The notes beneath the pieces are model-generated. The model saw only the letters and a program-made list of their open reading frames with translations, did no database searches and was not told the DNA's origin. From NCBI GenBank assembly GCA_000004985.1, contig GG738951.1: 24,047 nt of DNA. One strand, written 5' to 3'. The translations under genes and the position numbers were made by a program. The number at the start of each line of letters is the position of its first letter. Positions within the stretch are counted from its first letter, which is position 1. Of this stretch, positions 1 to 18,094 are shown piece after piece. Source of the stretch: Naegleria gruberi. Taxonomy: Eukaryota.

Positions 1-2
1 AT

Positions 3-906
3 TTAACAGGTGATTTAAAATATTATGAAATTGCTAAAAAAGCAACATTAAGTATTTTTAAATATAGAGATTTAAAAACTAATTTAATTGGTAATCATAT
101 AAATATAATGAATGGAGAATGGATACATCGTGAATCAGGTATAGGAGCATCAATTGATTCATATTTTGAATATCTATATAAGGGATTTATTTTATTTAAA
201 GATGAAGAATTATTAAATTTATTTAAAATTCATTATCAATCAATTTTAAAATATGTTTATAAAAATCCATGGTATTCAGATGTTGATATGAAATTTCCAA
301 AAATAACATTTGGATTATATAATTCATTAGCTTCATTTTGGCCAGGTGTACAAGCTTTATATGGTAATTATGAAATTGCTAAAAAGTCAATTATTGCTAT
401 ACATGGTATTTGGAGAAAATATGGAAGTATACCTGAAGGTTTTAATATTTTAATTTCAAAAGCACAAAAAGGTCAATTACCATATCCATTAAGACCTGAA
501 TTAATTGAAAGTATTTATCATTTATTTAAATTTGATGGTTCACGTGATTCTAATTATCTATATATGGCAAGAGATTTTTATACTAGTTTGGAAATTAATA
601 CAAAAACTAAATGTGGATATGCTGTTATTGATAATGTTGAAACTTTAAAATTAAATGATAGAATGGAATCTTTCTTTTTATCTGAAACTTTAAAATATTT
701 ATATTTAATTTTTGATTTTAATAATTTTGTACATTATAATAATCAAACAAATTCAGAAGAATTATTATTCACTTTTAATACTGAAGCACATTTAATTCCT
801 TTAAATTTAAATGCCTATTTAAAAAATATGATCCTTATTTTAATGAAAATAGATTTTTACATGATTTTTCAAAAAAATCAGCAATTTTTAAATAAAATAT
901 TTATTT
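3..906 (+). CDS. Glycoside hydrolase family 47, EDEM-like (ER degradation-enhancing alpha-mannosidase-like) protein; internal fragment, with the 5' end off-window and the 3' end running into the gap
   Basis: The frame is open from nt 3 (LTGDLKYYEIAKKA...) to nt 906. The translation carries GH47/EDEM signature blocks: GIGASIDSYFEYLYKGFILF, YPLRPELIESIYHLF, KCGYAVIDNV..DRMESFFLSETLKYLYLIFD, FNTEAHLIP. There is no GT dinucleotide in about the last 110 nt before the gap, so no obvious intron donor there. Confidence 0.85.
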
Positions 907-2220: not shown

Positions 2221-4054
2221 TGAAGTAGATCTATTACTTGTAGTAGTAGAAATACCTCTTGGTGATTTTTGATTCATTGAATCTAATAAATTAGCAGATT
2301 GACCACGTGGTGATTTAGGGTTATATAAACCACCACCAATCATACTATCCATTTTAAGAGAAGGTAATGCTGTAGATGTATTTAATTGATCTAATTGATC
2401 ATTATTATCAATTAAATTCCATTGAAATATAGTCAAATCACCACCACCACATGATAATAATTTTGTAATTCTTTCATTTTCAATATTATAATGTATAAAT
2501 TTAACATTTGTAACATGACTACAATGACCAATATAAGAATAACCAAATGGTTTAATAATTGGACATGGATAATGATATAAAGATAACATTGTTGTATCTT
2601 CACCTACTATAATTAATTCATTTTCATAATCAACATGACATGTATTAACATCTGTTCCATTAAAATCTTGTTTCCAAATACCTCTAACTGTCCATCCTAA
2701 TGGACATGTCATTGAATTCCATTCTATATTTTCTATATTTGAACAATTACTTAATTTTTTACTATTTAAATCCCATAATAATATTTCATAATCACCTGAA
2801 TTACTTTTTAAATAATTACCACATTTGGAAATATCTAAATGTGTAATAAATGATGAATGTCCTATTAATTTACCAATATATTTATAATCTCCACTACCAC
2901 TCTTTAAACAATTATATAAATAAATATAATTATCATGACTACCAACTGCTAATAAAGTACCATCATGATTATAAGATAGAGTTGTAATTTCTTCATTTGA
3001 ATCTTTACGTGTATATAATGGTTCTTCTGTAAATGTATAATTTTCTAAATTAAAACCATATATAAATAAATGACCTTCTTTAGAAGTGAATGCAACATGT
3101 TCATTTGAAGGTGAAACACATACACCTCTCAATTCTAATGATGAATTTAATTTTAATAATGAGGCGTGTTTTCTATTTTCACAATTCCATACAATAACTC
3201 TACCATCATCTGAACATGTTACAAATAAAGGTAATTCTTTAAATGTATCTAATCCCCATAATTGTTTTAACATGGTTCCAAAATGTGAAATTAATAACAA
3301 TTCAATTTCACCATTTTCTTTAATTAAATATAAATCACCATTTGCTTTACTAGCATATACATTATTATCATATTTAGAATGTGTTATATTTTTAACAAAT
3401 CCATTTATAGTAATACTTTTATAACATTCAATAAATGAATTATTAAATTTCCAATATTTAACTTGACCATCTTTACCACCACTAATAAAACCATAATTAA
3501 ATTTACTATTTTTATCATATAATGGATATAAAGTAAAAACATTACCATGATGTCCATTTATAGTATTAATTAATTTACCATCTCTAAATAAATAAATAGA
3601 ACCATCTTCACATCCAACATAGGCATCTTGATTTTTCATATTAAAACATAGAGAATGTAAATTTTGTAAAGTACCTTTACTTCCAAATATACCTGATTTA
3701 AATGTTAAATCTTTAGTATTATAAATTTTTAATACTTTTTTACCACAAATATAAATTTGTGAATCATCAGGTGAAAATTGTAAATCAAATATTTCACTTG
3801 ATAAACATTTTGTACTTGCAATTAATTCATTCTTTTTCCAATTATATAATAATATAATAGATGATGTATCATTACCACCTACTGTTACTAATAATTCTCC
3901 TGAATTGGAAAAACTAGTTGCTAATACTCCTCCATTTTTAAAATGTAAATGTGTATCTAATTTAGTAATTGGTTCTTTTATATCATGACTATCCCATATA
4001 TATATCATATCATCTTTACCTATTTGTCCACTTGCAAATATATATTCATTTGGA
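2221..4054 (-). CDS. EMAP-like (EML family) WD40 beta-propeller protein, exon 2; the 3' end is lost in the gap
   Basis: About 611 codons are open on the minus strand from the gap edge to 4054. WD40-like repeats run throughout (e.g. GHHGNVFTLYPL, FISGGKDGQVKYW, VTCSDDGRVIVWN, LAVGSHDNYIYLY, LSCGGGDLTIFQW). An AG acceptor at 4056-4055 (minus) joins exon 1 in phase, giving ...TIAK-H-PNEYIFASGQIGKDDMIYIWD. This parallels the EML 'HPD...IATGQ' segment that follows the HELP motif. Confidence 0.85.
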
Positions 4055-4130
4055 CTATATTTTTAATATAAATTCAATTAATATTAAATTATTATTATTA
4101 TTAAATTAAATTATTAAATATAAAACATAC

Positions 4131-4417
4131 TGTTTAGCAATGGTAACAACATCATCATCATGTTTTCTAAAAACAGATTGTGTATTATTTATAGGATCAT
4201 AAACAATACCACATGCAGCACTTGGATATACTAATTTATTTTCATCATTAATATGAAAATAACAACCTTTACATCCTTTTTTAGAAGCACCATGAATAAA
4301 TTCTAATTCTAATTTCTTTGATGGTAATTTATCGACCATCATTTCTTCATAATTAGTTGGTGGAAAATGTGCTGCTTTTAAAAAACGTGGATAAATAACT
4401 GAATTTGATGATGTCAT
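4131..4417 (-). CDS. EMAP-like protein, exon 1 (HELP-motif region)
   Basis: The ATG is at 4417-4415. The translation PSKKLELEFIHGASKKGCKGCYFHINDENKLVYPSAACGIVYDPINNTQSVFRKHDDDVVTIAK resembles the EML 'KLKLEWVYGYRG...' HELP region. A GTATGT donor sits at 4130, and the 76-nt AT-rich intron (4055-4130) ends in ATATAG. No N-terminal coiled-coil region is visible upstream, so an additional 5' exon cannot be excluded. Confidence 0.75.
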
Positions 4418-4651
4418 TATAATAGATTTAATATTACAGTGAGTATATTATTATAAAAGATATATATTATAGAAGTGTTTAGCCTTTTTTTTTTGTATTT
4501 TTAAGAGACACTAAGATTTACAGTATATAAATGAAAGACAACACATCAGAGAGAGTGAAGATGTTGATGATAATGATGAACTTTTTGACCCTTAATGAAG
4601 TTGAGAGGTAAAATCTCTATCTCTCTCTATTGATGTCTACAATATGATTGA

Positions 4652-4800
4652 GAGAGATGGAACCATACATGAAATATTACATCTCTTGTTTTTCAGAATG
4701 TTGACCATGTAAATAATACAAGACTTGAATTATTGTATAATATCTAAATATTCATTGACACAATTCAAAAAGGCATGGAACATGGAACAATTTTGTAAAG
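4652..4800 (+). repeat. Direct repeat, copy 1 (modules A and B split by a 52-54 nt insertion)
   Basis: Module A, TACATGAAATATTaCATCTCT..TTTTCA..AAT..TTGAC (about 4665-4705), matches about 7454-7495. Module B at 4760-4800 (ACAATTCAAAAAGGCATGGAACATGGAACAATTTTGTAAAG) matches 7496-7536 at 37 of 41 positions by hand alignment, and the last 24 nt are identical. The copy-1-specific insert (4706-4759) itself ends in ATTGAC, like module A. Confidence 0.8.
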
Positions 4801-4919
4801 TTATCTCTTAATCATTGTGTAAACTCCTCCTTCCAATCAAAATAGTTCCAGTTCAATGATTGTTGATTCTGACATGCCACTTTAAAAAGTGTGAATATTC
4901 TAAACTCACATTAAAAAAA

Positions 4920-6437
4920 ATGAGAGCATTCACATCCACAATCCGCCACCACACCCTGAAGAAGAATCACACAACAAGCTTTTTATTTTCAAAAAGAATT
5001 GGAAAAGAATCAATTAGAACATTTTCTAAAAATGTAATCCTAAACAATCAAATTCCGCCACCAACAGAAGAACAAGTAAGACACTTATATGACTTGGTAA
5101 TGAATAAAATTGTTTGGGAAAAGGCAAATAGAAATATAGTTCATGAGGATTTGAAAATGGAAAATCAATTTTCGAAACTTGATTTGAAACTTTTGATTAC
5201 TAATACCTCCCTATTTGCTGATCTATTTTCTTTCACACAAGATTTATTGACATTTGATCGATATAATCTTGTTCAGAATAGGGAAGAATTGAAAGAGGTG
5301 AATATTTCAAGTTTGATTCAATATTCTCAATTTTTTGCACATTTACTGAAAGGTATTGTTCAAGGATGGTATTCATTTAAAGATTTGAAACCATACTTTC
5401 CAAATCCACTTACAGGAGTTCAAATTGATGGTAAAGATTTGGTTGAAAATGATCCAGTGACCTATTTATATTGTTTATGGGAATTGAATTCAAAGGATTT
5501 TGTAAATGAACAAGTTCCATTTACAAGAGAGAAATTGATTTGTTTAATTCCAATCATTTTCTCTGCACTAGACCAAAATGATCCTGTAACTGCTTTACAA
5601 TACATGAAATTATTTGTAAAGCATTATCCTAAAGTTAAACAATTATACATAACATCAGCTCAAGGTAGTGATGAATTTTCATTGGAATCAAGTTGGACAA
5701 AAGTTTTAGGTAAAGTTTACACTGAGAATGAATTTGATTCGTGTTTAGATTGGGAAACTGAACTACCTGTAAACCTAAATGGAATGTACAATATTTTTAA
5801 AACACATGCAGACCACCAAACAATTGAAGATCAATGGAAAGTACTCTCAGTTATTGAAGAGGAAGAAAAAAAAACACCATCCAATCCTTATATTTTAGTA
5901 TTTAAGGGATATTTTGGAGATAGTGCTAAAGATTTTATTTATGGATCCAAATGTTTAGAACTATTAGCCAAATCACCTGCCAAAGTTGAAATATTGAAAA
6001 GAACTGAGAAATTTAATGTATTCAAGAATGAACAACCATCCAACCTTGAAATAATCAAAGATTTCAAATTCTTTCCTCTATTATTTTGGAAATGTGTAGT
6101 CTTATCAAAACAGGAAGATCCACGAATGGCAGTAGAATTATTCAAACAAGTGGAATATTATTCAAAAAAACAAACTCATTTTCCATTATTACTCTTGAAA
6201 ATGACTTTAGAATTCAGATTTGCCAATGATGAAGAGGTATTACGTATTTTCCAATTGATGGAACCATTCGAATCACAAACTAATCTTGTCCTTCTAGTCA
6301 GTGCAACAAACTATGCTTGCATGTCAATGAAAAATCTAGGATTAGAACAGGAAATTGTTCCAATGTTGGAAAAATTTATTGAGAAATATGGCAAGGAAAG
6401 TAATTTTACAACTATTCTCAATTACTATAAAAAGTAA
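4920..6437 (+). CDS. Hypothetical protein, 505 aa; unassigned, possibly organelle-targeted
   Basis: This is the first in-frame ATG (4920), preceded by an A8 run; the track start at 4860 is TTG. It is an uninterrupted 505-codon ORF with no Asn/Gln homopolymers. The N-terminus MRAFTSTIRHHTLKKNHTTSFLFSKRIGK is basic and hydroxylated with no acidic residue for about 29 aa, which resembles a mitochondrial presequence (inference only). I could not recognise a family. Confidence 0.55.
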   Translation: MRAFTSTIRHHTLKKNHTTSFLFSKRIGKESIRTFSKNVILNNQIPPPTEEQVRHLYDLVMNKIVWEKANRNIVHEDLKMENQFSKLDLKLLITNTSLFADLFSFTQDLLTFDRYNLVQNREELKEVNISSLIQYSQFFAHLLKGIVQGWYSFKDLKPYFPNPLTGVQIDGKDLVENDPVTYLYCLWELNSKDFVNEQVPFTREKLICLIPIIFSALDQNDPVTALQYMKLFVKHYPKVKQLYITSAQGSDEFSLESSWTKVLGKVYTENEFDSCLDWETELPVNLNGMYNIFKTHADHQTIEDQWKVLSVIEEEEKKTPSNPYILVFKGYFGDSAKDFIYGSKCLELLAKSPAKVEILKRTEKFNVFKNEQPSNLEIIKDFKFFPLLFWKCVVLSKQEDPRMAVELFKQVEYYSKKQTHFPLLLLKMTLEFRFANDEEVLRIFQLMEPFESQTNLVLLVSATNYACMSMKNLGLEQEIVPMLEKFIEKYGKESNFTTILNYYKK

Positions 6438-7340
6438 AATAGTTCTATTTTCATTAAAAGTTACTACTAGCTCTCAACATTGCACATATTGTTTTTCAAA
6501 ATTGCAACAGTTCAGCCCAAGAGGTACTTTCCTGTATGCTGAAAATTCAGCTTCAATTGCCAGTTGTGTTGATGAGGAACAACTAACTATTGTAACTTGG
6601 TTATTAAGGATAAAGAAGGAAATGAAATTTTGAGAGAACGTGCAACTTTGGATGAATTGAGTGAAGAAACATTCTCTGTTTCATTCTTAATTAAGAGTGA
6701 GCTATATACTGATTATAATATATCAGTAGAATTGGAGGAGAATTCATACTCTTTAGATAATAGTGAACATGTTGATCCATCTCCAATTCAAAAACTTAAC
6801 TTACAAATCAGATGCATTGAAAAGTTCCAAATAGATGCAGCAAGTACAATCTCAAAGAGTTCAAATGAAGAATCTCCATGTTAATGGTAAAATTGTTGAA
6901 GAGAAATTGGAATTCATTGCAAATGAAGTAAAAAAGATTCGTGATAGAACTATTTGAAAAATCATTTCAGGTACCTCACGTGAAAATATCAATGCAGTTC
7001 TTCCATTGTACATTGGTGAGGAACATTGGAGGGTTGCTCGTAAAAAGATGAAGCCAGTTTTAGGATTTGTCGCTACTTTGGATGTAATGGGTTATGCTTT
7101 CGAGCAATTCAAAACCATTCCATTCTTTGTTCTCTTCAAGCTTCTCCAAGAATGCTCTGAACAAGAATCAATGACTGAATTCCAATCTTTGAGATTAAAT
7201 TTGGTTCTAGCCAATTTTTAGAAACTGATGATGTGTATTGTGCAGCTGGTATGTTATTTGGACAAAAGAGAGGTAATGGTGAGTTTATTTATTTCACTCG
7301 TGCTCTATGTACCCCTGGTGTCAAGTTCTTTAAAAGTTGA
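6438..7340 (+). pseudogene. Coding-like sequence broken across three frames; either a decayed gene or unresolved exons
   Basis: Successive open stretches lie in different frames and none starts with ATG; the track starts at 6355, 6597 and 7006 are all TTG. The pieces are ..HCTYCFSKLQQFSPRGTFLYAENSASIASCVDEEQLTIV.. / ..DKEGNEILRERATLDELSEETFSVSF...IRCIEKFQIDAAS.. / ..NGKIVEEKLEFIANEVKKIRDRTI*KIISGTSRENINAVLPLYIGEEHWRVARKKMKPVLGFVATLDVMGYAFEQFKTIPF.. / ETDDVYCAAGMLFGQKRGNGEFIYFTRALCTPGVKFFKS* (7221-7340). Amino-acid composition looks protein-like rather than random. Confidence 0.3.
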
Positions 7341-7440
7341 AAATGTTATTGAGAGGTGAATTCCTTATAGAGTTGTTGAGTTGTTGGATTCTGCGCTTGG
7401 AGAATTGAATTCAATCCGGTGATGTTGTGGAAATTACTAA

Positions 7441-7536
7441 GAGAGCCTATCTGTACATGAAATATTGCATCTCTCTGGCTTTTCAATATATTGACAAAGT
7501 TCAAAAAGTCAAGGAACATGGAACAATTTTGTAAAG
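7441..7536 (+). repeat. Direct repeat, copy 2 (modules A and B contiguous)
   Basis: See copy 1. This copy ends 48 nt upstream of the ankyrin gene ATG (7585). Sequence becomes strongly AT-rich immediately after 7536. Confidence 0.8.
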
Positions 7537-7584
7537 AATATAATCACTAAAATATTAATAAAATAATAATAATCAATTTAAAAA

Positions 7585-8955
7585 ATGTCACATGATTCAC
7601 AATCTGATCAATTAAATGATCAACAACAACAAGAAGAAGAATATAATGAAGAGGAAGAAGAAGAAGAAGAATTTAATGAAGAAGAAGAAGAAATTAAAAA
7701 AACACTTGATGATGAATTATTAGATAGTGCTATTAATAGAGATTTTAATAGATTAAAATTATTATTAATAGAAAAAGGAGCCAATGCATTCTATAATAAA
7801 AGAATAGAAGGAGTATGGGGAGCCTATGAAGAATATGGAGTAATACATAAAGTATTACTTGGATGGGATGATATGAAAGAACAAATGCAAGCTATAGAAT
7901 TATTATTAAGTAAAGGTGCTAATGTAAATGCTATATATGGTAGTAGTAATTGGAAAGGAAGTGGATCAAGTGGTACAGCCTTTGAAATTGTATTAAGTAA
8001 GAATAATATTGAATTAATCAAATTATTTTTAAAATATGGAGCAGATTCAAATACATGTCAAAAAAGACAAGCACACACTATGAGATATGATGGTTCATCA
8101 TCTTTTCCTTTTTTATATCAAAGTGTTAAATATGGTAATTTAGATTTATTTAAATGTTTATTAGAACATAATGCTAATACTAATTTATTTGCTTTTAATA
8201 GAGGTTCATCTGAATATGGTCCTATTGATGATTTAAAAGAATTACCTTTACATTTAGCATGTAAATTATTTAAATCAATTAATAATATTAATATTAATAA
8301 TAATAATAATATTAATGAATCTTATGATAGTGATGATGAATATAATAATAATAATAATGAATCTAAATCTAAAAATAATTATGAAAAATATAAAGAAATG
8401 ATATTATTATTAATTAAATATAATAGTGATATTAACATGTATGGTAAAACAGTATATCAAATACCAAATGAAAATTATCCTAAAAATATAAATGAAGAAG
8501 AATATAATGAAATATCAGATCCAAGAGGTGATAATTTTATACCACAAACTATAAATATTAAAATACAATATACACCACTACATTTATCAATTATTACAAA
8601 TCAAAATGAAGAATTATTTAATTTATTATTATTTAATGGTGCAAATTCAAATATTAATTTTATTAAAAATAATATTGAAATTTCTACTTTAGATTTATTA
8701 AAAGAATATAATTTAAATTGGAATTTAAATTTTCAATGGTCAATTAAATATCATAAATATTTACCTAATCATTTAAAATTAATTATTAATACTTTACAAT
8801 ATATTTCATATCATTTAAATTGGCCTTTAAATTTAGATACTTTATCTATTATTTATAATTTTTTATGTTTGGATTATTTTTATGAAAATGATTTAAAATT
8901 TATTAAAAATAGACAAGAAGAATATGAAAAATTTAAAAAAACTAATTATTATTAA
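7585..8955 (+). CDS. Ankyrin-repeat protein with an acidic N-terminus and Asn-rich insert, 456 aa
   Basis: The ATG follows an A-run. The Glu-rich N-terminus is (QQQQEEEYNEEEEEEEEFNEEEEE). Repeated ankyrin signatures are present: ELLLSKGANVNA, IKLFLKYGADSNT, FKCLLEHNANTN, LPLHLACK, YTPLHLSIITNQNEELFNLLLFNGANSN. AATAAA lies at 8961-8966, just after the stop. Confidence 0.85.
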   Translation: MSHDSQSDQLNDQQQQEEEYNEEEEEEEEFNEEEEEIKKTLDDELLDSAINRDFNRLKLLLIEKGANAFYNKRIEGVWGAYEEYGVIHKVLLGWDDMKEQMQAIELLLSKGANVNAIYGSSNWKGSGSSGTAFEIVLSKNNIELIKLFLKYGADSNTCQKRQAHTMRYDGSSSFPFLYQSVKYGNLDLFKCLLEHNANTNLFAFNRGSSEYGPIDDLKELPLHLACKLFKSINNININNNNNINESYDSDDEYNNNNNESKSKNNYEKYKEMILLLIKYNSDINMYGKTVYQIPNENYPKNINEEEYNEISDPRGDNFIPQTINIKIQYTPLHLSIITNQNEELFNLLLFNGANSNINFIKNNIEISTLDLLKEYNLNWNLNFQWSIKYHKYLPNHLKLIINTLQYISYHLNWPLNLDTLSIIYNFLCLDYFYENDLKFIKNRQEEYEKFKKTNYY

Positions 8956-9065
8956 TATTTAATAAAAATGTAGAGTGTTTGTTTATATTTTTAATAAAAT
9001 TAACATATCTTTTTATTCTGAATAATTTCCCTTTATTTTTATTCCATCTTTTTGAAAATATATAT

Positions 9066-9428
9066 TTATAATAAATGATATGGACTTTGAAATGATATTA
9101 ATTGTTCATTATAATATCCATATTCTAAATTAATAATTAATTGTTCCAATTCTTTTACATTTCCAATAAATTTAATTTTATTATTAAAAGTATTTAAATT
9201 TAAAGTTAAATATTTAATATTATTTAATTTAAATAATTTAAATGCTGTATCAATAAATATATTACATTCTAATTCTTTTAAATTTTTAAAATTACTATTA
9301 TTAGTAATTAATTCAATAATAGAATCATTATCATAATTATTAATAAATTTAATAGATTTTACATTTAAAGATGTTTTACAAATTGATTTTAAATTTAAAT
9401 AAATTGATAATAAATTAATTTCTAAATC
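9066..9428 (-). pseudogene. LRR-like open frame (120 codons, no ATG) in frame with, and 51 nt downstream of, the last sense codon of the 9477-10682 ORF
   Basis: The minus-strand translation is DLEINLLSIYLNLKSICKTSLNVKSIKFINNYDNDSIIELITNNSNFKNLKELECNIFIDTAFKLFKLNNIKYLTLNLNTFNNKIKFIGNVKELEQLIINLEYGYYNEQLISFQSPYHLL*. It has the same L/N/I-rich repeat style as the upstream gene. It is absent from the ORF track because it lacks any start codon. Confidence 0.35.
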
Positions 9429-9476
9429 TCATCATTTATATTATTTTTATAAAAATTTAACTTTAAATTAAAATTA

Positions 9477-10682
9477 TCACTTCTTGATTTTAATTTTAGT
9501 TTCTAAATTTGAACAATTAATGAAAGATGTATTTTTAATAACATTATTTAAATCAACATTAAATTTAATTGATAAATAATTTAATTTTTTTAAATATTTT
9601 AAAAAGGAAATTGTTGTAACATTTTCAATTTTTAAATATTTTATATTTTCTAAAATAATATTATTATCATTTATATTAAAATTATTAATATAAATACTTT
9701 CTAAATTAAATATTACTGAATTTATATTATTTAATTGTAAATTACCCATATAAAAATGTTTTAAATTTTTTAAAGTTCCATTTAATAAATATTCCCAAAT
9801 TAATTCATTTTCTAATTTATATACAGCTATATTTATTTTTAATTTTAAAATATTTTGTAAATAAATTGATTCAAATAAATATTTTAATATATTTGGATTT
9901 TTAATAGAAATTTCTAAACTTTGTAAATTTTTAAATTTTTCTAACATTTCACATAATTGTTCATCAATTATTTTAGTATATTTAAAATGTTTTAAATTAT
10001 TTGGAATTAAACTTGTTATTATATTACAATCTATTAATTCTAAATCTTCTAAATATGGAAAATTAATATTTGTAAATATTGAATTATAACTTTCAATTGA
10101 TAAATTTTTTAATTTTAATTTTCTTAAATTACAAGTTATTAAATTATTAGGAATTTCAAATTTTAAATTTTTACTTGAATCAAATATTAATAAATTATTT
10201 AATTTGTTAAAATCTATAATTATATTATTATTTATATTGTCATTATTTTTAAATTTTAAAATTTCAAGTTGATTCCAATTTGTATTTAAAATTAAAGATT
10301 CAACATTTTCAAAATAATTTGAAATTTCGATAATTTTAATTAATTTTAAACATGATGGTTGATTTATAATTAAATTAATTAAATAATTAGATATTTTAAT
10401 ATTTTTAGATAAAATTAAATGAATTGAAGAAAATAAATTAGATTTCATTATATTAATAAATTCATCACTTAATTTAGTTCCATATTCGGATAATGATATT
10501 TGTTCATCATTTAATTTTGAATGTTTAAATATTTGATAATCATTACATTTTAATATAAATTTATATTCTTCAAATTTAAATCTAATTATTTTACATGTGT
10601 TACATAAATTAATCCATTCTTTTATTCCGTTAGTAAAGGGTATTATTTGATGGTAGAATATTTCTGATGGCAAGTTTTGCAT
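9477..10682 (-). CDS. F-box-like / leucine-rich-repeat protein, 401 aa
   Basis: The ATG at 10682 is preceded by an A-run on the minus strand. The N-terminus LPSEIFYHQIIPFTNGIKEWINLCNTCKII fits the loose F-box pattern (LPxEI..I....L..L..VCK.). The rest is LxxLxL-type repeats (FPYLEDLELIDCNII, FKNLQSLEISI, LKNLKHFYMGNLQL, IKYLKIENV, LKKLNYLSIKF). Confidence 0.8.
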   Translation of the reverse strand: MQNLPSEIFYHQIIPFTNGIKEWINLCNTCKIIRFKFEEYKFILKCNDYQIFKHSKLNDEQISLSEYGTKLSDEFINIMKSNLFSSIHLILSKNIKISNYLINLIINQPSCLKLIKIIEISNYFENVESLILNTNWNQLEILKFKNNDNINNNIIIDFNKLNNLLIFDSSKNLKFEIPNNLITCNLRKLKLKNLSIESYNSIFTNINFPYLEDLELIDCNIITSLIPNNLKHFKYTKIIDEQLCEMLEKFKNLQSLEISIKNPNILKYLFESIYLQNILKLKINIAVYKLENELIWEYLLNGTLKNLKHFYMGNLQLNNINSVIFNLESIYINNFNINDNNIILENIKYLKIENVTTISFLKYLKKLNYLSIKFNVDLNNVIKNTSFINCSNLETKIKIKK

Positions 10683-10716
10683 TTTTTTTAAAGTTGATCA
10701 AAATTCAATCACATAA

Positions 10717-10788
10717 AACTTCTCTCGAAATTGAGTGATAATCAGAATTGAATAGCTGAATTGAATAGCTTCCCTTTAGAGAGAAGTT
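10717..10788. repeat. 10-bp perfect inverted repeat enclosing a perfect 13-bp tandem duplication
   Basis: AACTTCTCTC (10717-10726) is the exact reverse complement of GAGAGAAGTT (10779-10788). Between them, GAATTGAATAGCT occurs twice back to back (10745-10757 and 10758-10770). The structure lies 35-106 nt upstream of the minus-strand ATG at 10682. Confidence 0.8.
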
Positions 10789-11862
10789 ACATCATAAACA
10801 AAAATCGTCCAAAATTAATGCCAGTTATTGTGTGAAATAAAGGTAAGTGATTGGATGGGCAGTAGTATTAACTTATTATCAAGTTTAACATGGACGTCCT
10901 TTTCCTTCATTGAACTCAAGATCTTTCCAATCCTCGAAATCTGCCAAAGTTAATTGATCTTCTCCAGAAGTCTGTAAATGCAGTGACAGTCTAACACAGT
11001 GTTCTCTCTCGTTTGTTGTTAAAGTATACTCATGAAAACATGGTTGTGTAAGTGTATATCTATTGAATTCCGAAATGCGAACAGTGAGGGATATATTAGT
11101 GAATGTATGCAAACATCAACAGTGAACGATTATCCTTGTTCTATTATTCCAATTTAATAATGCTGTTTGAGATCCACTCTTGTTTGTATTCTAAGACTAT
11201 AGTAAATGTGTGATCATCACTATACCTGCCGCTTAACTCCTATGTTCCGTTTTCTAGATGTTAAAGAGTATTCCTATGCTCAAAGTTGACTATCTCCGAA
11301 AAAATAACTTAACTGTAAGCACATTACAATATTTAGGGGATTGTAAAGTCACTACCACTCAGCAGACTGTTTGCGATAGAACTAGCAAACTGCTTCCTAA
11401 GTTATTGTTTGTGTGTTTATACCAACTTGGCAATTGGAGGAGATCAGTTACAATAGAGAAGGAATGGAGATTGAATTTGGAGAATTGGCAGTTACTTCAT
11501 GAATAATTCTGAGTAAATTTACTTAGAAAAAATGTAAGTTGCCTTCCTAGATCTCAATCACTAGCAACATACAATGAATCCAACAAAAAAGCAAATTTAG
11601 AATAAAATGTGTATTTTGAGTAGTCGAACAAAGTTCCAGACCGAAATGTCAGCTGCTTCTAAGATACATGATCTTTCAATGAGAATAACCTAAGAGTGGA
11701 GTACTTGGGTAATAGACAGTGTAATAGTTGGTTTTTAGTTGGCTTTGTTCCCTCTAAACCCCATCCACAACCCTAATTTAATTTTCCCCAACTTCGAACG
11801 ATTTGGTTGGTTCGTTGGTTGGTAGTAGGTTGATTGTTGGGTAAAGGAATGAAATTGGTGGG

Positions 11863-11950
11863 TAACTATTCAATAAATATTCAGTAACCATTCAGTTATT
11901 ATATGGTAAACATTCAGTGACTATTCGGTGAACATTTAGTTTCTATGCGG
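11863..11950. repeat. Degenerate 11-bp tandem repeat, 8 units
   Basis: Read in 11-nt steps from 11863 the units are: TAACTATTCAA / TAAATATTCAG / TAACCATTCAG / TTATTATATGG / TAAACATTCAG / TGACTATTCGG / TGAACATTTAG / TTTCTATGCGG. The consensus is roughly T-R-A-M-Y-A-T-T-C-R-G. Confidence 0.85.
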
Positions 11951-12031
11951 CTTTTAGTGTGTTGGTTCATTTGACTGAAAGTTTCCCTTAATTTACAATT
12001 TTCATAATTTGAGTAAAACTGATTAATTTAT

Positions 12032-12501
12032 TTACAATTGTTGTGCTTCTTCTGAGTCTGATTGACCATTATCTGAATAAAGATCTGCACCATCTGATTC
12101 CATATCAAGCAAATTAATTGCGTCTGCTGAAGGTTGTGTTGCTCTTGTCAGGTTTTTTGATCCAATCTTTAACAAGTGTTAAAAAAACAACTTGTTCATC
12201 TTCTGCAACATAGCTCTGCAATGAAGAGAATTGACCATTGTTGGCTCTGACATGTTCTCTTGTTGGTGAAGAGGTAGAAGGTTGAATTTCTGTTGTTGAA
12301 TTGAGGATTGAACTCCTTCTATATATTAGAAACTTCGACATTGGAATTCTTCTTTCTTTTTGGCTTCTCTTTTTTCTTTAATTCTATTAGACTCTTTCTT
12401 TTAAAAGAACTCCACAGATTGCTGAATATCTTACTGACATTAACAATAGCTCTAATTAATTGTTGGAAAATAATTAATAAATAATTAAGGATAAACTTCA
12501 C
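12032..12501 (-). pseudogene. Three overlapping minus-strand open frames in different phases (basic K-rich, S/T-rich, acidic tail); a frameshifted or unresolved gene
   Basis: 12319-12501 gives ..LKKKEKPKRKKNSNVEV.. . 12114-12341 gives ..STTEIQPSTSSPTREHVRANNGQFSSLQSYVAEDEQVVFLTLVKDWIKKPDK.. . 12032-12178 gives HLLKIGSKNLTRATQPSADAINLLDMESDGADLYSDNGQSDSEEAQQL*. The frame changes coincide with T7 and A6 homopolymer runs (about 12150-12190). Confidence 0.25.
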
Positions 12502-12517
12502 TTAGAATACTTTGCAC

Positions 12518-12891
12518 TTATTTATATGTATCCGTTGACAATCCATTAACATGTTTTCTGCGCAATGTTTCACCAAAAGTTAATTGCAGACAATCTTTAC
12601 ATGAACTCATGGCAGTATCATTTTGGGGAATCCCTTTTCGCTTACAGTAAATTCGAATACATTGCATAACTTCTCTTTTTAATCTATATAAAATCAAATA
12701 ACTAACTAACAACTTGCTTACTTACGCTCGTTGAGTATCCTTCCATCCCACTGCAGCCTTGGGATAACAGTCAGCCAACTTTTCATATGTGGCTTCTGGT
12801 AAACATGTTATGGTTAATTTAGTCTTCTTCTTTGTTATTAGAATAATTTATGTTGAATAAATGGTGTTAAACTACTTACTTTTACGCACAT
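12518..12891 (-). CDS. Candidate small 3-exon gene (about 93 aa), unassigned; the 5' end is uncertain
   Basis: The hand-built model is exon a 12880-12891 (ATG TGC GTA AAA|GTAAGT), exon b 12726-12829, and exon c 12518-12683. The introns are 50 nt (GTAAGT..AAAG) and 42 nt (GTAAGT..TATAG), and both are in phase. The product is MCVK-KKTKLTITCLPEATYEKLADCYPKAAVGWKDTQR-A-LKREVMQCIRIYCKRKGIPQNDTAMSSCKDCLQLTFGETLRRKHVNGLSTDTYK*. A very canonical ATGCCAG|GTAAGT lies further upstream at 12975-12963, but I could not join it in frame. Confidence 0.3.
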
Positions 12892-13031
12892 GATGGTGAT
12901 GATGCTGAAATGAAGTAAAATTGGCAGTTGATGGAAAAGTTACAAGGTTGATGTAGAATTACTTACCTGGCATTTATTGTGTTTTTTTGATTCGAATTTT
13001 CAGTCGAAAGCCAGTTTTTAGACGAAAAAAA

Positions 13032-13565
13032 ATGTCTTTACAAAATAACAAGGAACAAGGTATCTATTTTGAAAGACGCTGTGATTCTTGCAAGAAATCT
13101 TTACACACAGTATTTTACCAACCAATTTCAAGTGCAAAATTCAAGATTCAAATTAAATGTAACTGTGAAAACTCTGAGTGTAAAAATTTTACTAAGGAAA
13201 AACTTGGATGTTGTTTATGTGATTATAGTTGTGTCAAATCTGAAACGTTGTTGAAACATATTACAAAAGAACATTCCATCAAGTTTCCAAAAGTGTGTTG
13301 TGATAAACATTACACCACAATGGAGGAATACGTCGATCATATCAATTTTAAACATCAAACCAACACAAAGAGTGCAATAGAACATCAACCGTTAAAGAGA
13401 TTATGTTTATCTAAACCAGAAAAACCAGTAAAGCTCAGCTCCTCTGCAAATACATCTTTACAGCATGTCATTACTCCTCAAAATGATACATTGGAGTGCA
13501 AGAATGTCTTTCATTTGATCAAATTCAAACCAGATGTAAATATTTCAAAACTCAACAACCAATAA
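13032..13565 (+). CDS. C2H2 zinc-finger protein, 177 aa
   Basis: The ATG at 13032 follows an A8-9 run; the track start at 12987 is TTG. There is a classical C-X2-C-X12-H-X4-H finger at 13209-13274 (CCLCDYSCVKSETLLKHITKEH), followed by a degenerate second finger (CCDKHYTTMEEYVDHINFKH). Additional Cys pairs lie N-terminally (CDSCKK, CNCENSECK). An adjacent open frame (13496-13753, GTG start in the track) may be a frameshifted or spliced continuation. Confidence 0.55.
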   Translation: MSLQNNKEQGIYFERRCDSCKKSLHTVFYQPISSAKFKIQIKCNCENSECKNFTKEKLGCCLCDYSCVKSETLLKHITKEHSIKFPKVCCDKHYTTMEEYVDHINFKHQTNTKSAIEHQPLKRLCLSKPEKPVKLSSSANTSLQHVITPQNDTLECKNVFHLIKFKPDVNISKLNNQ

Positions 13566-13879
13566 TTGATGAAAATGATACTGAACAGGACCAATATGTA
13601 TACTATGGTGTTGTAAATTCAAACATTCATGCAACAACTGGCTATGTTGCACTAAATCAAATAATTGGTAAATGTTTGATTCATAGTATTGCAGGCAAAG
13701 AAATGTTCAACCAATACTCGTTTTTCATGAATTTCCATAAAGTTAAATTTTAAAAATAGAACATTTATTAATTTTTGGCTTTGGAGGTGTATTCAACAGC
13801 GTCCAGCTACCACTACCACCAACTACATCCACTCTTAGGATCAAAGAACAGAACTGAATCGTTTAATTCAATAATTTAT

Positions 13880-16861
13880 TTAAAGTTTTGATTGTTGTTT
13901 GTTGGAATCATTGTTAATAATTTCATGAGCAGCAATTCTTCCATAAACAACACATTCCAATAAACTATTACCAGCCAATCTATTTAAACCATGTAATCCA
14001 CCTGATGCTTCACCTGCAGTATATAAACCTTGAATTGGTTCAACAGTATTATCATTTGCAATTCTTCTTAAAACTCTTGCCTTTTCATCAAATAATAAAC
14101 CACCATGTGTATAGTGAATGGAAGGTGTAATTCTTGAAATATAAATGGTATCATTTAAATTAAATAGAGTTGGGAATAAATTCTTTCCAAAATCATCTAC
14201 AATTGAATTATTTAATTGATATTGATTATAAAAATGATTATAATTTTCAATAGTATTAATTAATTGTTGTAAATTTAAATGTTGTAATGATTCTTGATGA
14301 GCATGTTGTAAATTATTAAATTTCTTAATAAAACCTTTACCAATATAAAAAGATAATAAAGATTCACTAAAAGATTTAGCAACATGATCATTCATAATCA
14401 TATAAGCAGTAGTATGTCCATTTTCAATTTCAGATTTACAATTTTTAAATATCATATCAGAAACATAATCTCTTCTACCTAATTCATTACAAAATCTATT
14501 ACCATTCTCATTAACTATAATACCACCATAAGCACGTAATGCTTCAGCTGCTAAAAATACTGTCATACTTTTAGGATTTAATGGATCAATAAATCCAGTT
14601 GGATGTACTTGAATAGATTCCATATGTATTAATGAGGCTCCTAATTCTTTAACTGCCATTCTAATACCTTCTCCATTAGCAAATTTACCATTAGTAGTTG
14701 GTAATTTTGATAATTGTGGTGCATATTCTTTTAAATATCCTTCTCTATCTGCTGCATATCCACCTGTTGTTAATACAACTGATGATACTTTTAATTCTTT
14801 AACTTGTTGTTCTTTTAATTCTTTTAATTGTTCTGATTGTGATTCTTTTGATTGTTCTTTTGATTCTTGTTCAAGAGTAATATATTTAATACCTGTTACA
14901 ATTGTATTATTATTTTCATCAATTAAAGTTAAAAAACCAATCATTTTAGTACTTGTCATTACAGTAACTCTATCATTTAAATTATTCTTAATATAATTTA
15001 ATAATTTAAAAGTAATTTCAGCACCAACATTCATTGCACGTCCAACTTTAGGTGGAGCAGAACGATGTGTACGTGCCATTGAATGACCACCACATTGTGT
15101 TACTAATTCCATTCCAATACCATGATTTTCTAAAAATTCAATTGCACTTGTTGATTCTTTAACAAGTGTTGAAATTAATTTAGGATTACCTGCTTGTTTA
15201 CCTGATTTAGTAGTATCAGATATAAATAAATCAACTGTATCAGGAATTGATAATCTTTCCTGTGCTTTAGTTAATACTCCATTAATACCTGATGTTGCTT
15301 TAGCACTATTACCACCTGTACGTTCTTCTTTTTCAATTAAATAAACATAACCTCCTAATTCTGCAATTTCAATAGCTGCTGATAATCCTGCAAGTCCACC
15401 TCCAATCACTGCTACTTTTATTGGTGATGATGATGATTGATTAGTTGTAGATGTAGATTCAGTAGTGGTGGTGGATTGTGTAGTAGATTGTTCAACAGTT
15501 GGAGTGTCCATACTTGGTTGATTGGTAGTAGTGGTATCGGATTGTTTTTGATCACTTGTTGGAGTAGTAGTGATAGGTGTAGTAACCTCTTCTTGTTGTT
15601 GTTTAGTAGTAGTAGTAGGAGTGGTGCTAGTAGGAGTAGTTGTTGTTGGTTCTTCTTGTTGTTGTTGTTCAACTTTAGCCTTTGATTCTACTTGTTTGGT
15701 TTCAGCAGTAACTGTAGGGGTTGTTGTTGGAGTACTTGGAGTAGCAGCAGTAGTAGTAGTAGTTTCAGCTTGAGGTGTTGTTGTTGTAGTTGATGTGCTT
15801 GGTTGAGTGGTGGAAGTAGTGGTGGTTGTTGGGTTCAAATTTGGAATTTGTTTTTTATGAATCTTATTTTGGATAAATTCTAAAGCTTGTTCAAATTCAC
15901 TATTTAAATTTGTATAAATTTTAATCCTATCACTATTATTTAATAAAATATTATTTAAATTATTATTATTACTATCAATAATATTATCATCATAATTATA
16001 AAAATAATTAAATTCTTCAAATAATGTAATTGTATTTTGATTAATAGAATTATGAATACTATTATTATCATTTTCATTTAAATTATTTAAATTACAATGT
16101 TTTAATAATGGTAATAAAATAGATCTAGTAGGTAATATATTTGTAATTAATTTATATAATTTTTTAAATAAAATAGATGATGTCTTTTTACCTAATATTT
16201 TATTATAAATAATTGAAATTAATTTATGAATAGATTTATAATCTTTAATTAATTCAATTATTTTATCAATTGTAATCTTTTCATTAATAATTGAATTATT
16301 AATTGGTAATATTGGTGAAAATAAAACTATATTTTCAATATTTTCAATATTATTATTTAATTGTTGTAATTGTTTATAATATAATAAAGTATAAAAAGCA
16401 CCTAATTGATGACCAATTAAACTATATGAATTTAATTTTAATTCATTAACAATAGATTGAATAGAATTCATAATTAAATAATATTGTTCTTTAGAACATG
16501 AACAAGTATTTAAAGTATTATTGTTAGTATTTAAAAAAGATTGACCAATACCAGGTCTATCAAATTTAATTAATCTAATAGAATGTTTTTTAGCTAATTC
16601 ATCTTCATTTAAATGTCCATATGAAAGTGATCCAGGTGTAGGATGTAATTGAATAACTGCATGTCCATTCAAATCACCCAATTCAATATAGGCTATTTTA
16701 GATCCATCCTTTTCAATATATTTTAATTTATTACTAATATTACTATTTAATAATGATTCTGTATGTTTAGGATTTTTATATAAATTAACATTACTTGAAT
16801 ACAATAATGATAAGACTATTGCAATCAAGGCTGTTGTGAGAATAAGTAATTTACTCAACAT
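13880..16861 (-). CDS. Fusion protein, 993 aa: N-terminal signal-anchor, alpha/beta-hydrolase-like module, Thr/Pro/Gln-rich linker, and soluble FAD-dependent fumarate reductase (FRD1/OSM1 / flavocytochrome c flavin-domain type)
   Basis: This is a single uninterrupted ORF whose ATG is preceded by A9. The hydrophobic N-terminus is MLSKLLILTTALIAIVLSLLYSS. The hydrolase-fold blocks are VIQLHPTPGS, FDRPGIGQS and SLIGHQLGAF. The linker spans about 15425-15840. The reductase blocks are VAVIGGGLAGLSAAIE (dinucleotide fold), TGGNSAKATSGINGV, DTTKSG, CGGHSMARTHR, IQVHPTGFIDP, AAEALRAYGGIIVNENGNRFCNELGRRDYV, and GLYTAGEASGGLHGLNRLAGNSLLECVVYGR. Confidence 0.9.
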   Translation of the reverse strand: MLSKLLILTTALIAIVLSLLYSSNVNLYKNPKHTESLLNSNISNKLKYIEKDGSKIAYIELGDLNGHAVIQLHPTPGSLSYGHLNEDELAKKHSIRLIKFDRPGIGQSFLNTNNNTLNTCSCSKEQYYLIMNSIQSIVNELKLNSYSLIGHQLGAFYTLLYYKQLQQLNNNIENIENIVLFSPILPINNSIINEKITIDKIIELIKDYKSIHKLISIIYNKILGKKTSSILFKKLYKLITNILPTRSILLPLLKHCNLNNLNENDNNSIHNSINQNTITLFEEFNYFYNYDDNIIDSNNNNLNNILLNNSDRIKIYTNLNSEFEQALEFIQNKIHKKQIPNLNPTTTTTSTTQPSTSTTTTTPQAETTTTTAATPSTPTTTPTVTAETKQVESKAKVEQQQQEEPTTTTPTSTTPTTTTKQQQEEVTTPITTTPTSDQKQSDTTTTNQPSMDTPTVEQSTTQSTTTTESTSTTNQSSSSPIKVAVIGGGLAGLSAAIEIAELGGYVYLIEKEERTGGNSAKATSGINGVLTKAQERLSIPDTVDLFISDTTKSGKQAGNPKLISTLVKESTSAIEFLENHGIGMELVTQCGGHSMARTHRSAPPKVGRAMNVGAEITFKLLNYIKNNLNDRVTVMTSTKMIGFLTLIDENNNTIVTGIKYITLEQESKEQSKESQSEQLKELKEQQVKELKVSSVVLTTGGYAADREGYLKEYAPQLSKLPTTNGKFANGEGIRMAVKELGASLIHMESIQVHPTGFIDPLNPKSMTVFLAAEALRAYGGIIVNENGNRFCNELGRRDYVSDMIFKNCKSEIENGHTTAYMIMNDHVAKSFSESLLSFYIGKGFIKKFNNLQHAHQESLQHLNLQQLINTIENYNHFYNQYQLNNSIVDDFGKNLFPTLFNLNDTIYISRITPSIHYTHGGLLFDEKARVLRRIANDNTVEPIQGLYTAGEASGGLHGLNRLAGNSLLECVVYGRIAAHEIINNDSNKQQSKL

Positions 16862-17152
16862 TTTTTTTTCACTTTTTATTGTTGATCAAATCCCTTTGTT
16901 GCTGCTTGTTGTATAAGTGATAGTAAGTGAAAGGGTACTATTTGAGACATTTGAACATTTTCGTAAGGTTTAAAAATAGTCAATAGATCGATGTTTGTTG
17001 TTGTTGTATTCAATCTTCATAATATAATTGTACTCAATTTTACTTTATTTTTCTCTCTTTTAAACTTCTCAAATAATCAATGTCATATAAAAATCAATAT
17101 AATAAAAATCAATATAATTCTTAAATAATATATATATTATATAAAAAAAAAT

Positions 17153-18016: not shown

Positions 18017-18094
18017 CTATTATTTTAAATTGTTTTAAATTGTTTTTTAAATATTATTATAGATATAAATATTATTATTATAAATATTATTATT

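What the first reader, a model, noticed from the sequence alone, without database searches (positions are those of the whole stretch)
4440..7540. A 3.1-kb segment unlike its neighbours: less AT-rich, no low-complexity tracts, one intact orphan ORF plus decayed coding
Seen directly: between the EML start (4417) and the ankyrin gene (7585), the sequence loses the A/T homopolymers and Asn-codon runs typical of the flanks, including in its non-coding parts. Hand count of the 60-nt line 5041-5100 gives 21 G+C, against 9 for the intergenic line 8961-9020 and 7 for line 8281-8340. However, host coding lines can reach 22 (7921-7980), so the contrast is mainly in non-coding sequence and in repeat content.

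The segment holds a 505-codon ORF I cannot assign, then about 900 bp of protein-like sequence split over three frames. It is bracketed by a direct repeat (reported as a separate finding).

Inference: it may be a mobile-element or transfer-derived insertion, or a lineage-specific gene pair, one member of which is decaying.
Basis: partly seen in the sequence, partly recalled or inferred. Interest (0 to 1): 0.5.

Follow-up and report, generated by a model that had tools for sequence, protein, structure and literature searches.

The report
Ordinary Naegleria DNA inside AT-rich island
The 3.1-kb segment is normal-looking Naegleria gruberi DNA, holding one intact Naegleria-only gene and a broken neighbour; the unusual sequence is the extremely AT-rich, Willaertia-like gene cluster around it, which is not from a slime mould as first assumed.

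Summary
The window is a complete 24,047-bp scaffold of the Naegleria gruberi NEG-M assembly, not dictyostelid DNA. The composition shift at 4440-7540 is real. GC is 0.31 against 0.24 and 0.16 in the flanks, and third-codon-position GC (GC3) is 0.23 in the 505-aa ORF against 0.04-0.13 in eleven flanking ORFs.

The ORF is XP_002668794.1. It belongs to a small family seen only in N. gruberi: a 36% paralogue on a 381-kb scaffold, and a 99.7% twin on a 4.6-kb scaffold that has a different 3' continuation. An environmental near-copy of the paralogue has the same composition as the segment (GC 0.33, GC3 0.31). So the segment is typical Naegleria DNA and the flanks are the outliers.

The flanks are heterolobosean. 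GH47, kinase and fumarate reductase are adjacent in Willaertia magna too, at 53-89% identity.

The "bracketing" repeat carries a motif that also lies upstream of the paralogue. It looks like a family promoter module, not a transposon end. I found no transposon hallmarks.

A second block of the same kind lies at 10690-13875. All four junctions miss coding sequence (p about 0.0004 if placed at random).

Most likely this is a recently duplicated block of ordinary Naegleria DNA in an intergenic gap. Misassembly and ordinary mosaicism remain live rivals.

The parts
2221..4417 (-). Left flank: EML-type WD40 gene (XP_002668798.1). Exon 1 is 4131-4417, the intron is 4055-4130 (GTATGT...TATAG), and exon 2 runs from 4054 down into the N gap. 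It belongs to the very AT-rich class (GC3 0.05-0.06).
   Evidence: The N-terminus and the intron position match an environmental orthologue on L001, so the junction does not truncate the gene.
4418..4540 (.). Left boundary zone. This is an AT-rich spacer upstream of the EML start codon and includes a T10 run at 4486-4495. Composition switches at about 4503-4540.
   Evidence: k-mer change point at 4503.
4594..4800 (+). Upstream repeat, copy 1. Box 1 is 4666-4686. Box 2 is 4754-4800, with the motif TGGAACAATTTTGTAAAG at 4783-4800. It ends 119 nt before the ATG of the 505-aa ORF.
   Evidence: A 15/18 match to the motif lies 61 nt upstream of the paralogue's ATG on L003.
4920..6437 (+). Intact 505-aa ORF: XP_002668794.1, NAEGRDRAFT_82311. 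The model is all-alpha. The N-terminus is basic, hydroxyl-rich and free of acidic residues, like a mitochondrial presequence. GC1/2/3 is 0.41/0.27/0.23.
   Evidence: No Pfam or PDB match.
6470..7346 (+). Coding-like remnant with no detectable relatives. The pieces are in frame 1 (to 6633), frame 3 (6597-6884), frame 1 (6883-7221, with an in-frame TGA at 6958-6960) and frame 3 (7221-7346).
   Evidence: No homologue or domain was found. A spliced 183-aa reading needs the donors GTGTTG and GTTAAT.
7342..7536 (+). Upstream repeat, copy 2. Box 1 is 7454-7474. Box 2 is 7490-7536, with the motif at 7519-7536. It ends 48 nt before the ATG of the ankyrin gene.
7537..7584 (.). Right boundary: a 48-nt AT-rich spacer before the ankyrin start codon.
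7585..8955 (+). Right flank: ankyrin-repeat gene of the very AT-rich class (GC 0.20, GC3 0.05, Asn runs).
10690..13875 (.). Second block of the same composition (GC 0.33). It lies between the start codon of an LRR-like ORF (9477-10682, -) and the stop codon of the fumarate reductase gene (13880-16861, -). It holds a Cys/His-rich ORF (13029-13565, +; GC3 0.29), what looks like a small multi-exon gene on the - strand (about 12030-12975, GTAAGT donors) and short ORF remnants.

Best explanation
**What it is.** The segment is a block of ordinary Naegleria gruberi-type nuclear DNA. It is a piece of a locus of a small Naegleria-specific gene family. In order it holds:
- an upstream (promoter-type) module;
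- an intact gene for a 505-aa all-helical protein with a mitochondrial-presequence-like N-terminus;
- a decayed neighbouring gene;
- a second copy of the upstream module.

**Where it sits.** It is physically real and lies in the divergent intergenic gap between two genes of an unusually AT-rich heterolobosean gene cluster. That cluster is syntenic with Willaertia magna.

**How it got there.** It most likely arrived by a recent DNA-level duplication or insertion of about 3 kb copied from elsewhere in the same genome. A second block at 10690-13875 has the same character.

**Shown:** the composition classes, the family membership, the twin copy, the Willaertia synteny of the flanks, the junction positions and the shared upstream motif.

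**Inferred:** that the join is real, that the block arrived recently, that the repeat acts as a promoter module, and that the protein goes to mitochondria.
For: **Identity of the scaffold.** The ORF is 100% identical to an N. gruberi protein carried on a contig of exactly the window's length.

**The ORF family.**
- A 36% paralogue (E = 1e-65, 91% coverage) lies on a 381-kb scaffold.
- A twin differs at 1 of 360 aligned residues. It lies on a 4,616-bp scaffold, and its 3' continuation is not encoded in the window.

**Composition.**
- An environmental copy of the paralogue (98.7% identical, L003) has contig GC 0.326, GC3 0.31 and upstream GC 0.32. That equals the segment and differs from the flanks.
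- The N. gruberi genome is 33% GC (PMC6892926; PMC8296547).
- Flank genes have GC3 of 0.04-0.13.
- The flank fumarate reductase is more AT-shifted than its W. magna orthologue in the same 795 aligned columns: GC1 0.36 against 0.45, GC3 0.065 against 0.18.

**Origin of the flanks.** GH47, kinase and fumarate reductase are adjacent in W. magna.

**Junctions.** All four fall outside coding sequence although the AT-rich class is 86% coding. That gives p about 0.0004 for random joins. All four lie inside one gap-free 19.9-kb contig.

**The repeat.** Its core recurs upstream of the paralogue, where 0.01 matches are expected by chance.
Against: - I could not inspect reads, mate pairs or any independent N. 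gruberi assembly, so the four junctions are unverified.
- The twin copy sits on a small scaffold that starts inside the ORF and diverges downstream. This is what an assembler produces when it struggles with a repeat.
- The three consecutive blocks are each 3.0-3.2 kb, close to the small-insert size I recall for Sanger-era JGI libraries. That recollection is not a tool result.
- No insertion signature such as a target-site duplication was found.
- W. magna shows kb-scale variation of its own: GC3 of 0.085-0.29 and intergenic GC mostly 0.22-0.34 within 22 kb. Composition alone therefore does not prove a recent arrival.
- Why the flanks are so AT-rich in a 33% GC genome is unexplained.
Confidence: 0.45

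Rival explanations
1. Assembly artefact. Reads from two sources were joined in silico: typical N. gruberi DNA and an extremely AT-rich heterolobosean, or an atypical part of the genome. On this reading the 3.1-kb segment and its sister block do not lie between these genes in any cell.
For: - There are two sharply different composition classes.
- A 99.7% twin of the ORF sits on a 4.6-kb scaffold that starts inside the ORF and continues differently.
- The scaffold is small and has two gaps.
- Block lengths are 3.0-3.2 kb.
- The EML gene has no close relative in any named Naegleria or Willaertia proteome among the best 120 hits.
Against: - Four joins would all have to fall in the 14% of non-coding sequence, each within about 120 bp of a coding-sequence end (p about 0.0004).
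- All four lie in one gap-free 19.9-kb contig.
- All AT-rich ORFs are intact, which argues for decent coverage. By Lander-Waterman reasoning (my inference), a low-level contaminant would not assemble that well.
- The short T-runs at the joins are too short to mislead an overlap assembler.
Confidence: 0.2
2. Ordinary mosaicism. The segment is a long-resident, native stretch holding a weakly expressed lineage-specific gene and a pseudogene. Its composition is simply the neutral level for the genome. Its neighbours are driven AT-rich by gene-specific bias. No insertion occurred.
For: - W. magna, assembled with long reads, shows GC3 from 0.085 to 0.29 and GC from 0.17 to 0.36 within 22 kb. There GC3 lies below intergenic GC.
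- Amino-acid composition is about the same for ORF505, its bona fide paralogue and the EML gene: FYMINK 0.34-0.35 and GARP 0.12-0.14.
- The dinucleotide signature does not clearly separate the two classes from chunk-to-chunk noise.
Against: - GC3 is uniformly low in all eleven AT-rich ORFs whatever their function. That points to mutation bias rather than selection.
- ORF505 is about 3 times the local mean, whereas the highest value in the W. magna sample is about 1.7 times its mean.
- Introns and one intergenic region of the flanks are far more AT-rich (0.05-0.20 and 0.12) than non-coding DNA of the segment (0.30-0.34).
- The near-identical twin points to a recent event.
Confidence: 0.2
3. Transfer between species. 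Either N. gruberi acquired a multi-gene AT-rich island from another heterolobosean and its own DNA has since moved into it, or an AT-rich heterolobosean captured Naegleria DNA.
For: - The flanks carry long-term AT bias down to the amino-acid level. It is stronger than in W. magna (25% GC), although the labelled genome is 33% GC.
- N. gruberi has a separate fumarate reductase with the same architecture on a 573-kb scaffold. It is 38% identical to the window's copy, while the window's copy and W. magna's are 53% identical over the same columns.
- The EML gene is absent from the other named heterolobosean proteomes in the hit list.
Against: - Transfer of contiguous eukaryotic DNA of this size is very rare.
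- No donor is known.
- The two fumarate reductases may simply be old paralogues.
- Absence from hit lists may reflect gaps in the database.
Confidence: 0.1
4. The segment is a transposable element, or its remnant, bounded by long terminal direct repeats.
For: - A direct repeat lies near both ends.
- There are two near-identical copies of the ORF in different contexts.
- Its composition differs from the neighbouring genes.
Against: - No transposase, reverse transcriptase, integrase or capsid domain was found in any ORF or fragment.
- The repeats are only about 70-90% alike, with a 52-nt indel, while the ORF copies are 99.7% alike.
- The left repeat lies inside the segment, not at its end.
- No terminal inverted repeat or target-site duplication was recognised.
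- The ORF has a stable 36% paralogue of the same length, with the same kind of N-terminus and the same upstream motif.
- No tRNA gene lies nearby.
Confidence: 0.04

Closest known systems
N. gruberi predicted-protein family NAEGRDRAFT_70147 / NAEGRDRAFT_82311 (XP_002674812.1, XP_002668794.1, XP_002668260.1)
   Same: - The ORF is one of the three known members.
- It aligns end to end with the 530-aa paralogue at 36-37% identity and shares blocks such as IKDFKFFP, QVEYYS and GMYNIF.
- Both have a basic, acid-free N-terminus.
- Both have the TGGAACAWTWTTGTAAA motif upstream.
   Different: The family has no described function, no Pfam or PDB relative and no confident structure model. Membership therefore says nothing yet about what the protein does.
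Recent segmental (DNA-level) duplication with one copy landing in an intergenic region
   Same: - A near-identical second copy exists with a different flank.
- The block carries its own upstream region and a neighbouring pseudogene.
- Introns are retained in the sister block, so it is not a retrocopy.
   Different: No junction microhomology or duplication signature was identified. The donor locus could not be read.
Compositional compartments such as AT-rich isochores of Leptosphaeria maculans or the AT-rich subtelomeres of Plasmodium vivax (from general knowledge, not tested here)
   Same: There are sharp kb-scale switches between two GC regimes that affect both coding and non-coding sites.
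   Different: Here the AT-rich compartment is the gene-dense one. It holds intact, conserved, syntenic housekeeping-type genes, while the GC-richer blocks hold the orphan and decayed genes. The blocks are only 3 kb long.
Integrated foreign elements recognised by a GC shift, for example giant-virus insertions in Acanthamoeba (PMC11702301)
   Same: There is a local GC shift with sharp edges.
   Different: No viral or mobile-element genes and no terminal inverted repeats were found. The shifted block matches the host genome's own composition.

Membership tests
   - The window equals an N. gruberi NEG-M scaffold.
- There is no dictyostelid among the best 120 EML hits.
- The closest fumarate reductase is Willaertia magna's, and GH47, kinase and fumarate reductase are adjacent there.
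N. gruberi NAEGRDRAFT_70147/82311 protein family | Significant full-length similarity to the other members | tested here: met
   E = 1e-65, 36% identity and 91% coverage to P0003. The twin P0002 is 99.7% identical.
Transposable element (LTR or TIR class) | Encodes a transposase, reverse transcriptase or integrase | tested here: not met
   Pfam scans of the ORF, the fragments and the ORFs of the sister block found none.
Transposable element (LTR or TIR class) | Terminal repeats at the exact ends, plus a target-site duplication | tested here: not met
   - The left repeat starts 50-90 bp inside the boundary and ends 119 nt before the ORF.
- The two copies are only about 70-90% alike, with a 52-nt indel.
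- The repeat scans listed no terminal inverted repeats or flanking duplication that I could recognise.
Horizontally acquired DNA (compositional criterion) | Composition departs from that of the recipient genome | tested here: not met
   The segment (GC 0.31, GC3 0.23) matches N. gruberi-type DNA on L003 (GC 0.326, GC3 0.31) and the published 33% genome GC. It departs only from its immediate neighbours.
Pseudogene | Recognisable homology to a functional parent gene, with disabling mutations | tested here: inconclusive
   - Codon periodicity and frame switches are present.
- No parent or relative was found.
- A 183-aa spliced reading with weak donors cannot be excluded.
Assembly chimera | Junctions not spanned by reads or clones from one genome | not testable with these tools
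   No reads and no second N. gruberi assembly could be reached. N. gruberi proteins are not on record in the contig look-up. The indirect evidence, junction placement with p about 0.0004, argues against a chimera.
Mitochondrial presequence-bearing protein | N-terminal basic, hydroxylated, acid-free targeting peptide | tested here: inconclusive
   Read directly from the sequences. ORF505 residues 1-47 hold 9 K/R and 1 acidic residue. In the paralogue the first acidic residue is at position 45. No targeting predictor was available.

The most novel reading that the evidence does not exclude
The scaffold is a true piece of the NEG-M genome, and its AT-rich part is either a multi-gene island acquired from another, far more AT-rich heterolobosean or a long-isolated compartment such as an accessory chromosome. 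That island is now being colonised by blocks of ordinary Naegleria DNA that land exactly between genes.
Probability: 0.15. Interest if true: 0.75.

Novelty: new member of a known kind. Interest (0 to 1): 0.42.

Why it matters
**The segment itself is modest.** It holds a lineage-specific gene of unknown function, a broken neighbour, and a duplicated upstream module that offers a testable Naegleria cis-regulatory motif (TGGAACAWTWTTGTAAA).

**The wider point concerns the reference genome.** This RefSeq scaffold mixes two compositional regimes at gene-boundary resolution.
- If the joins are false, several RefSeq proteins (XP_002668794 to XP_002668799) sit on a chimeric or foreign scaffold. Any that are not Naegleria genes could mislead comparative and gene-transfer studies that use them.
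- If the joins are real, N. gruberi carries an extremely AT-rich, Willaertia-syntenic gene island whose origin is unexplained.

Tried and rejected
**Function of the ORF and the fragments: nothing found**
- Pfam on the ORF, the fragments, the tail of the twin and the sister-block ORFs gave no domains.
- PDB sequence and profile searches gave nothing.
- AlphaFold2 with the 3-sequence alignment gave pLDDT 43. The model is helical but too poor for fold search, so none was run.
- A homology search with the concatenated fragments gave no hit.

**Other copies or independent context: nothing found**
- N. gruberi proteins are not indexed in the contig look-up, so neither the 4.6-kb scaffold nor the 381-kb scaffold could be read.
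- Six exact look-ups of window ORFs found nothing. Four of them used minus-strand coordinates that were off by three. Three of these were repeated correctly and were still absent. The fourth, the fumarate reductase, was identified through the representative search.
- A scan of JGI metagenomes for relatives of the ORF family found none.
- A scan for the 24-nt repeat core found none.

**RNA genes and repeats**
- No tRNA or Rfam family is present in the window.
- The scan of the second block showed no terminal repeats.

**Composition signature**
- The dinucleotide signature gave delta* 0.148 between the two classes. Chunk-to-chunk noise within the AT-rich class is 0.132, so this is not decisive.

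**Literature**
- Searches for reported contamination or misassembly of the N. gruberi assembly found only bacterial contaminants (ContScout) and nothing on this scaffold or its accessions.

**Ideas dropped**
- *D. purpureum cross-contamination at JGI.* I first suspected this. I dropped it because no dictyostelid hit appeared and the flanks share gene order with Willaertia.
- *Giant-virus origin of the flanks.* I dropped this because of a spliceosomal intron at a position conserved with a cellular orthologue and because the gene order matches a nuclear locus of W. magna.
Full report
**What the window is.** The 505-aa ORF at 4920-6437 is 100% identical to "predicted protein [Naegleria gruberi]" (XP_002668794.1, NAEGRDRAFT_82311). 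That protein is carried on a contig of 24,047 bp, exactly the window's length. The EML-type gene on the left is XP_002668798.1, and the fumarate reductase at 13880-16861 is XP_002668799.1, on the same contig. So the window is a whole scaffold of the N. gruberi NEG-M assembly. It has two N gaps, at 907-2220 and 22143-22591. No dictyostelid appears among the best 120 relatives of the EML gene.

**Check of the observation.** The composition shift is real.
- GC is 0.310 in 4440-7540, against 0.239 and 0.159 in the two flanks and 0.216 for all AT-rich parts together.
GC3 is 0.23 in the ORF and 0.21-0.30 in the downstream fragments. It is 0.04-0.13 in eleven flanking ORFs or exons.
- Non-coding DNA inside the segment is 0.30-0.34 GC. 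AT-rich intergenic regions and the kinase intron are 0.12-0.25.
- Asn-type trinucleotide runs are depleted, but A/T homopolymers of 6 or more are not.
- A codon model trained on the ORF shows coding-like signal on the + strand from about 6470 to 7345. It alternates between frames 1 and 3, and there is an in-frame TGA at 6958-6960.
- The direct repeat is real. BLAST finds 54 nt at 89% (E = 2.5e-13) plus 42 nt at 81%. There is a 24-nt exact core, with none expected by chance. The two copies differ by a 52-nt indel and are otherwise about 70% alike.

**A second block.** A second block of the same composition lies at 10690-13875 (GC 0.33). It starts 8 nt upstream of the start codon of an LRR-like ORF and ends about 5 nt after the stop codon of the fumarate reductase gene. 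It holds a Cys/His-rich ORF with GC3 0.29 and what looks like a small multi-exon gene with GTAAGT donors. It shares no sequence with the first block and has no terminal repeats.

**What the ORF is.** It is not a strict orphan. Two relatives exist, both in N. gruberi.
- A 530-aa paralogue, XP_002674812.1, lies on a 381-kb scaffold (36% identity, 91% coverage, E = 1e-65).
- A partial twin, XP_002668260.1, lies on a 4,616-bp scaffold. It differs at 1 of 360 aligned residues and then continues into 96 residues that are not encoded anywhere in the window.

The ORF and the paralogue align end to end. Both begin with a basic, Ser/Thr-rich stretch free of acidic residues, like a mitochondrial presequence. 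That is my reading of the sequences, not a prediction tool. Pfam and PDB searches gave nothing. The AlphaFold2 model is all-helical but unreliable (pLDDT 43). The downstream fragments have no relatives or domains. They can be spliced into a 183-aa ORF only with the donors GTGTTG and GTTAAT, unlike the GTAAGT and GTATGT donors seen elsewhere in the window. Decay is therefore likely but not proven.

**Which side is unusual.** The paralogue has a 98.7%-identical copy on an environmental contig (L003, ENA ERZ929261). This supplies bona fide N. gruberi-type DNA: contig GC 0.326, gene GC1/2/3 of 0.41/0.29/0.31, and upstream GC 0.32. That matches the segment (0.41/0.27/0.23, non-coding 0.30-0.34) and the published genome GC of 33% (PMC6892926; PMC8296547). 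The segment is therefore typical for the labelled genome, and the flanks are the outliers.

**What the flanks are.**
- The closest relative of the fumarate reductase is Willaertia magna KAL9643942.1. It is 61% identical in the search and has the same hydrolase-plus-reductase architecture. N. gruberi's own second copy, on a 573-kb scaffold, is 45% identical in that search. Over 795 shared ungapped columns the figures are 53% and 38%.
- In the W. magna genome, GH47 mannosidase, the kinase and the fumarate reductase are adjacent. The window holds all three at 53-89% identity, with the kinase-reductase pair inverted relative to GH47 and separated from it by about 11 kb.
- The EML gene's N-terminus and first intron position match an environmental orthologue.

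So the flanks are vertically inherited heterolobosean nuclear genes. They are nevertheless more AT-shifted than their W. magna orthologues in the same aligned columns (GC1 0.36 against 0.45, GC3 0.065 against 0.18, and more FYMINK residues). This is so although W. magna's genome (25% GC) is more AT-rich than N. gruberi's. I cannot explain this.

**The repeat.** The core of the repeat, TGGAACAATTTTGTAAAG, ends 119 nt upstream of the ORF's ATG and 48 nt upstream of the ankyrin gene's ATG. A 15/18 match (TGGAACATTATTGTAAAC) lies 61 nt upstream of the paralogue's ATG on L003, on the same strand. There 0.01 matches are expected by chance, and 2 of 200 shuffles had one. The differences between the two copies in the window are not concentrated at third codon positions, so the repeat is not coding; this is my reading of the alignment. 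I read it as an upstream regulatory module of this gene family that has been duplicated, not as a transposon end or an insertion scar. Its second copy, at the very edge of the block, suggests the block was cut from a locus where another family member followed. That member may be the twin copy.

**Real or chimeric.**

*Against a chimera:*
- The AT-rich class is 86% coding, yet all four junctions fall in non-coding sequence within about 120 bp of a coding-sequence end (p about 0.0004 for random joins).
- All four junctions lie inside one gap-free 19.9-kb contig.
- Every AT-rich ORF is intact.

*For a chimera:*
- There are two compositional regimes.
- The twin copy sits on a tiny scaffold that begins inside the ORF.
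- The block lengths of 3.0-3.2 kb resemble a small-insert library size (my recollection).
- The EML gene is absent from other named heterolobosean proteomes in the hit list.

*A third reading:* W. magna's own locus shows GC3 from 0.085 to 0.29 and GC from 0.17 to 0.36 within 22 kb. Some mosaicism is therefore normal in this group, and ordinary mosaicism stays open. The dinucleotide signature did not decide the matter.

**Verdict.** Most likely (0.45) the segment is a physically real, recently duplicated block of ordinary Naegleria DNA lying in an intergenic gap of an atypically AT-rich, Willaertia-syntenic gene cluster. It carries a family-specific gene with its promoter module and a decayed neighbour. 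The rivals are:
- an assembly chimera (0.2);
- long-resident native mosaicism (0.2);
- transfer between heteroloboseans (0.1);
- a transposable element (0.04).

The decisive test is to map long reads, or the published Nanopore re-assembly of N. gruberi (PMC12695648), across the four junctions, and to compute the genome-wide GC3 distribution. As a finding about the segment this is a new member of a known kind. The unexplained AT-rich island around it is the more interesting lead.

Noticed in passing
window 10690-13875: A second block of about 3.2 kb with GC 0.33 and the same composition as the segment. It sits exactly between the start codon of an LRR-like ORF and the stop codon of the fumarate reductase gene. 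It holds a Cys/His-rich 178-aa ORF (13029-13565, +) and what looks like a small multi-exon gene on the - strand with GTAAGT donors. No Pfam domains were found.
   Followed up: partly
window 1-906, 13880-18787; L002 6564-12592: GH47 mannosidase, a GSK3-like kinase and a hydrolase-fumarate reductase fusion are adjacent in Willaertia magna and all occur in the window. In the window the kinase-reductase pair is inverted relative to GH47 and separated from it by about 11 kb (EML, block 1, ankyrin, LRR, block 2).
   Followed up: yes
window 4783-4800 and 7519-7536; L003 469-486: The motif TGGAACAWTWTTGTAAA lies 119, 48 and 61 nt upstream of the start codons of the 505-aa ORF, the ankyrin gene and the paralogue's environmental copy. 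It is a candidate Naegleria cis-regulatory box.
   Followed up: partly
window 13880-16861 (-), about residues 340-470 of the product: The fumarate reductase carries a Thr/Pro/Ser/Gln-rich linker of about 130 residues and several Asn runs between its hydrolase and reductase domains. The W. magna orthologue lacks both.
   Followed up: partly
window 2221-4417 (-); L001 523-3046: The EML-type gene has no close relative in any named Naegleria, Willaertia or dictyostelid proteome in the hit list. It does have a 49%-identical orthologue with the same first-intron position on an environmental contig of 40% GC. That contig's dinucleotide signature is very close to that of the GC-richer blocks (delta* 0.038).
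   Followed up: partly
window 19547-21289 and 21301-22083 (-): Two Asn-rich ORFs of 580 and 260 aa with no domains lie on the same strand only 11 nt apart. They may be one gene interrupted by a stop codon or a very short intron.
   Followed up: no
window 7537, 10690, 13875 and about 4520: The three consecutive blocks between the four composition junctions measure about 3.0, 3.15 and 3.19 kb. This regular spacing may be coincidence (the genes are about that long) or a clue to how the mosaic arose.
   Followed up: no
window 8956-9476: The spacer between the convergent ankyrin and LRR-like genes is only 11.7% GC. It is by far the most AT-rich non-coding stretch in the window.
   Followed up: no
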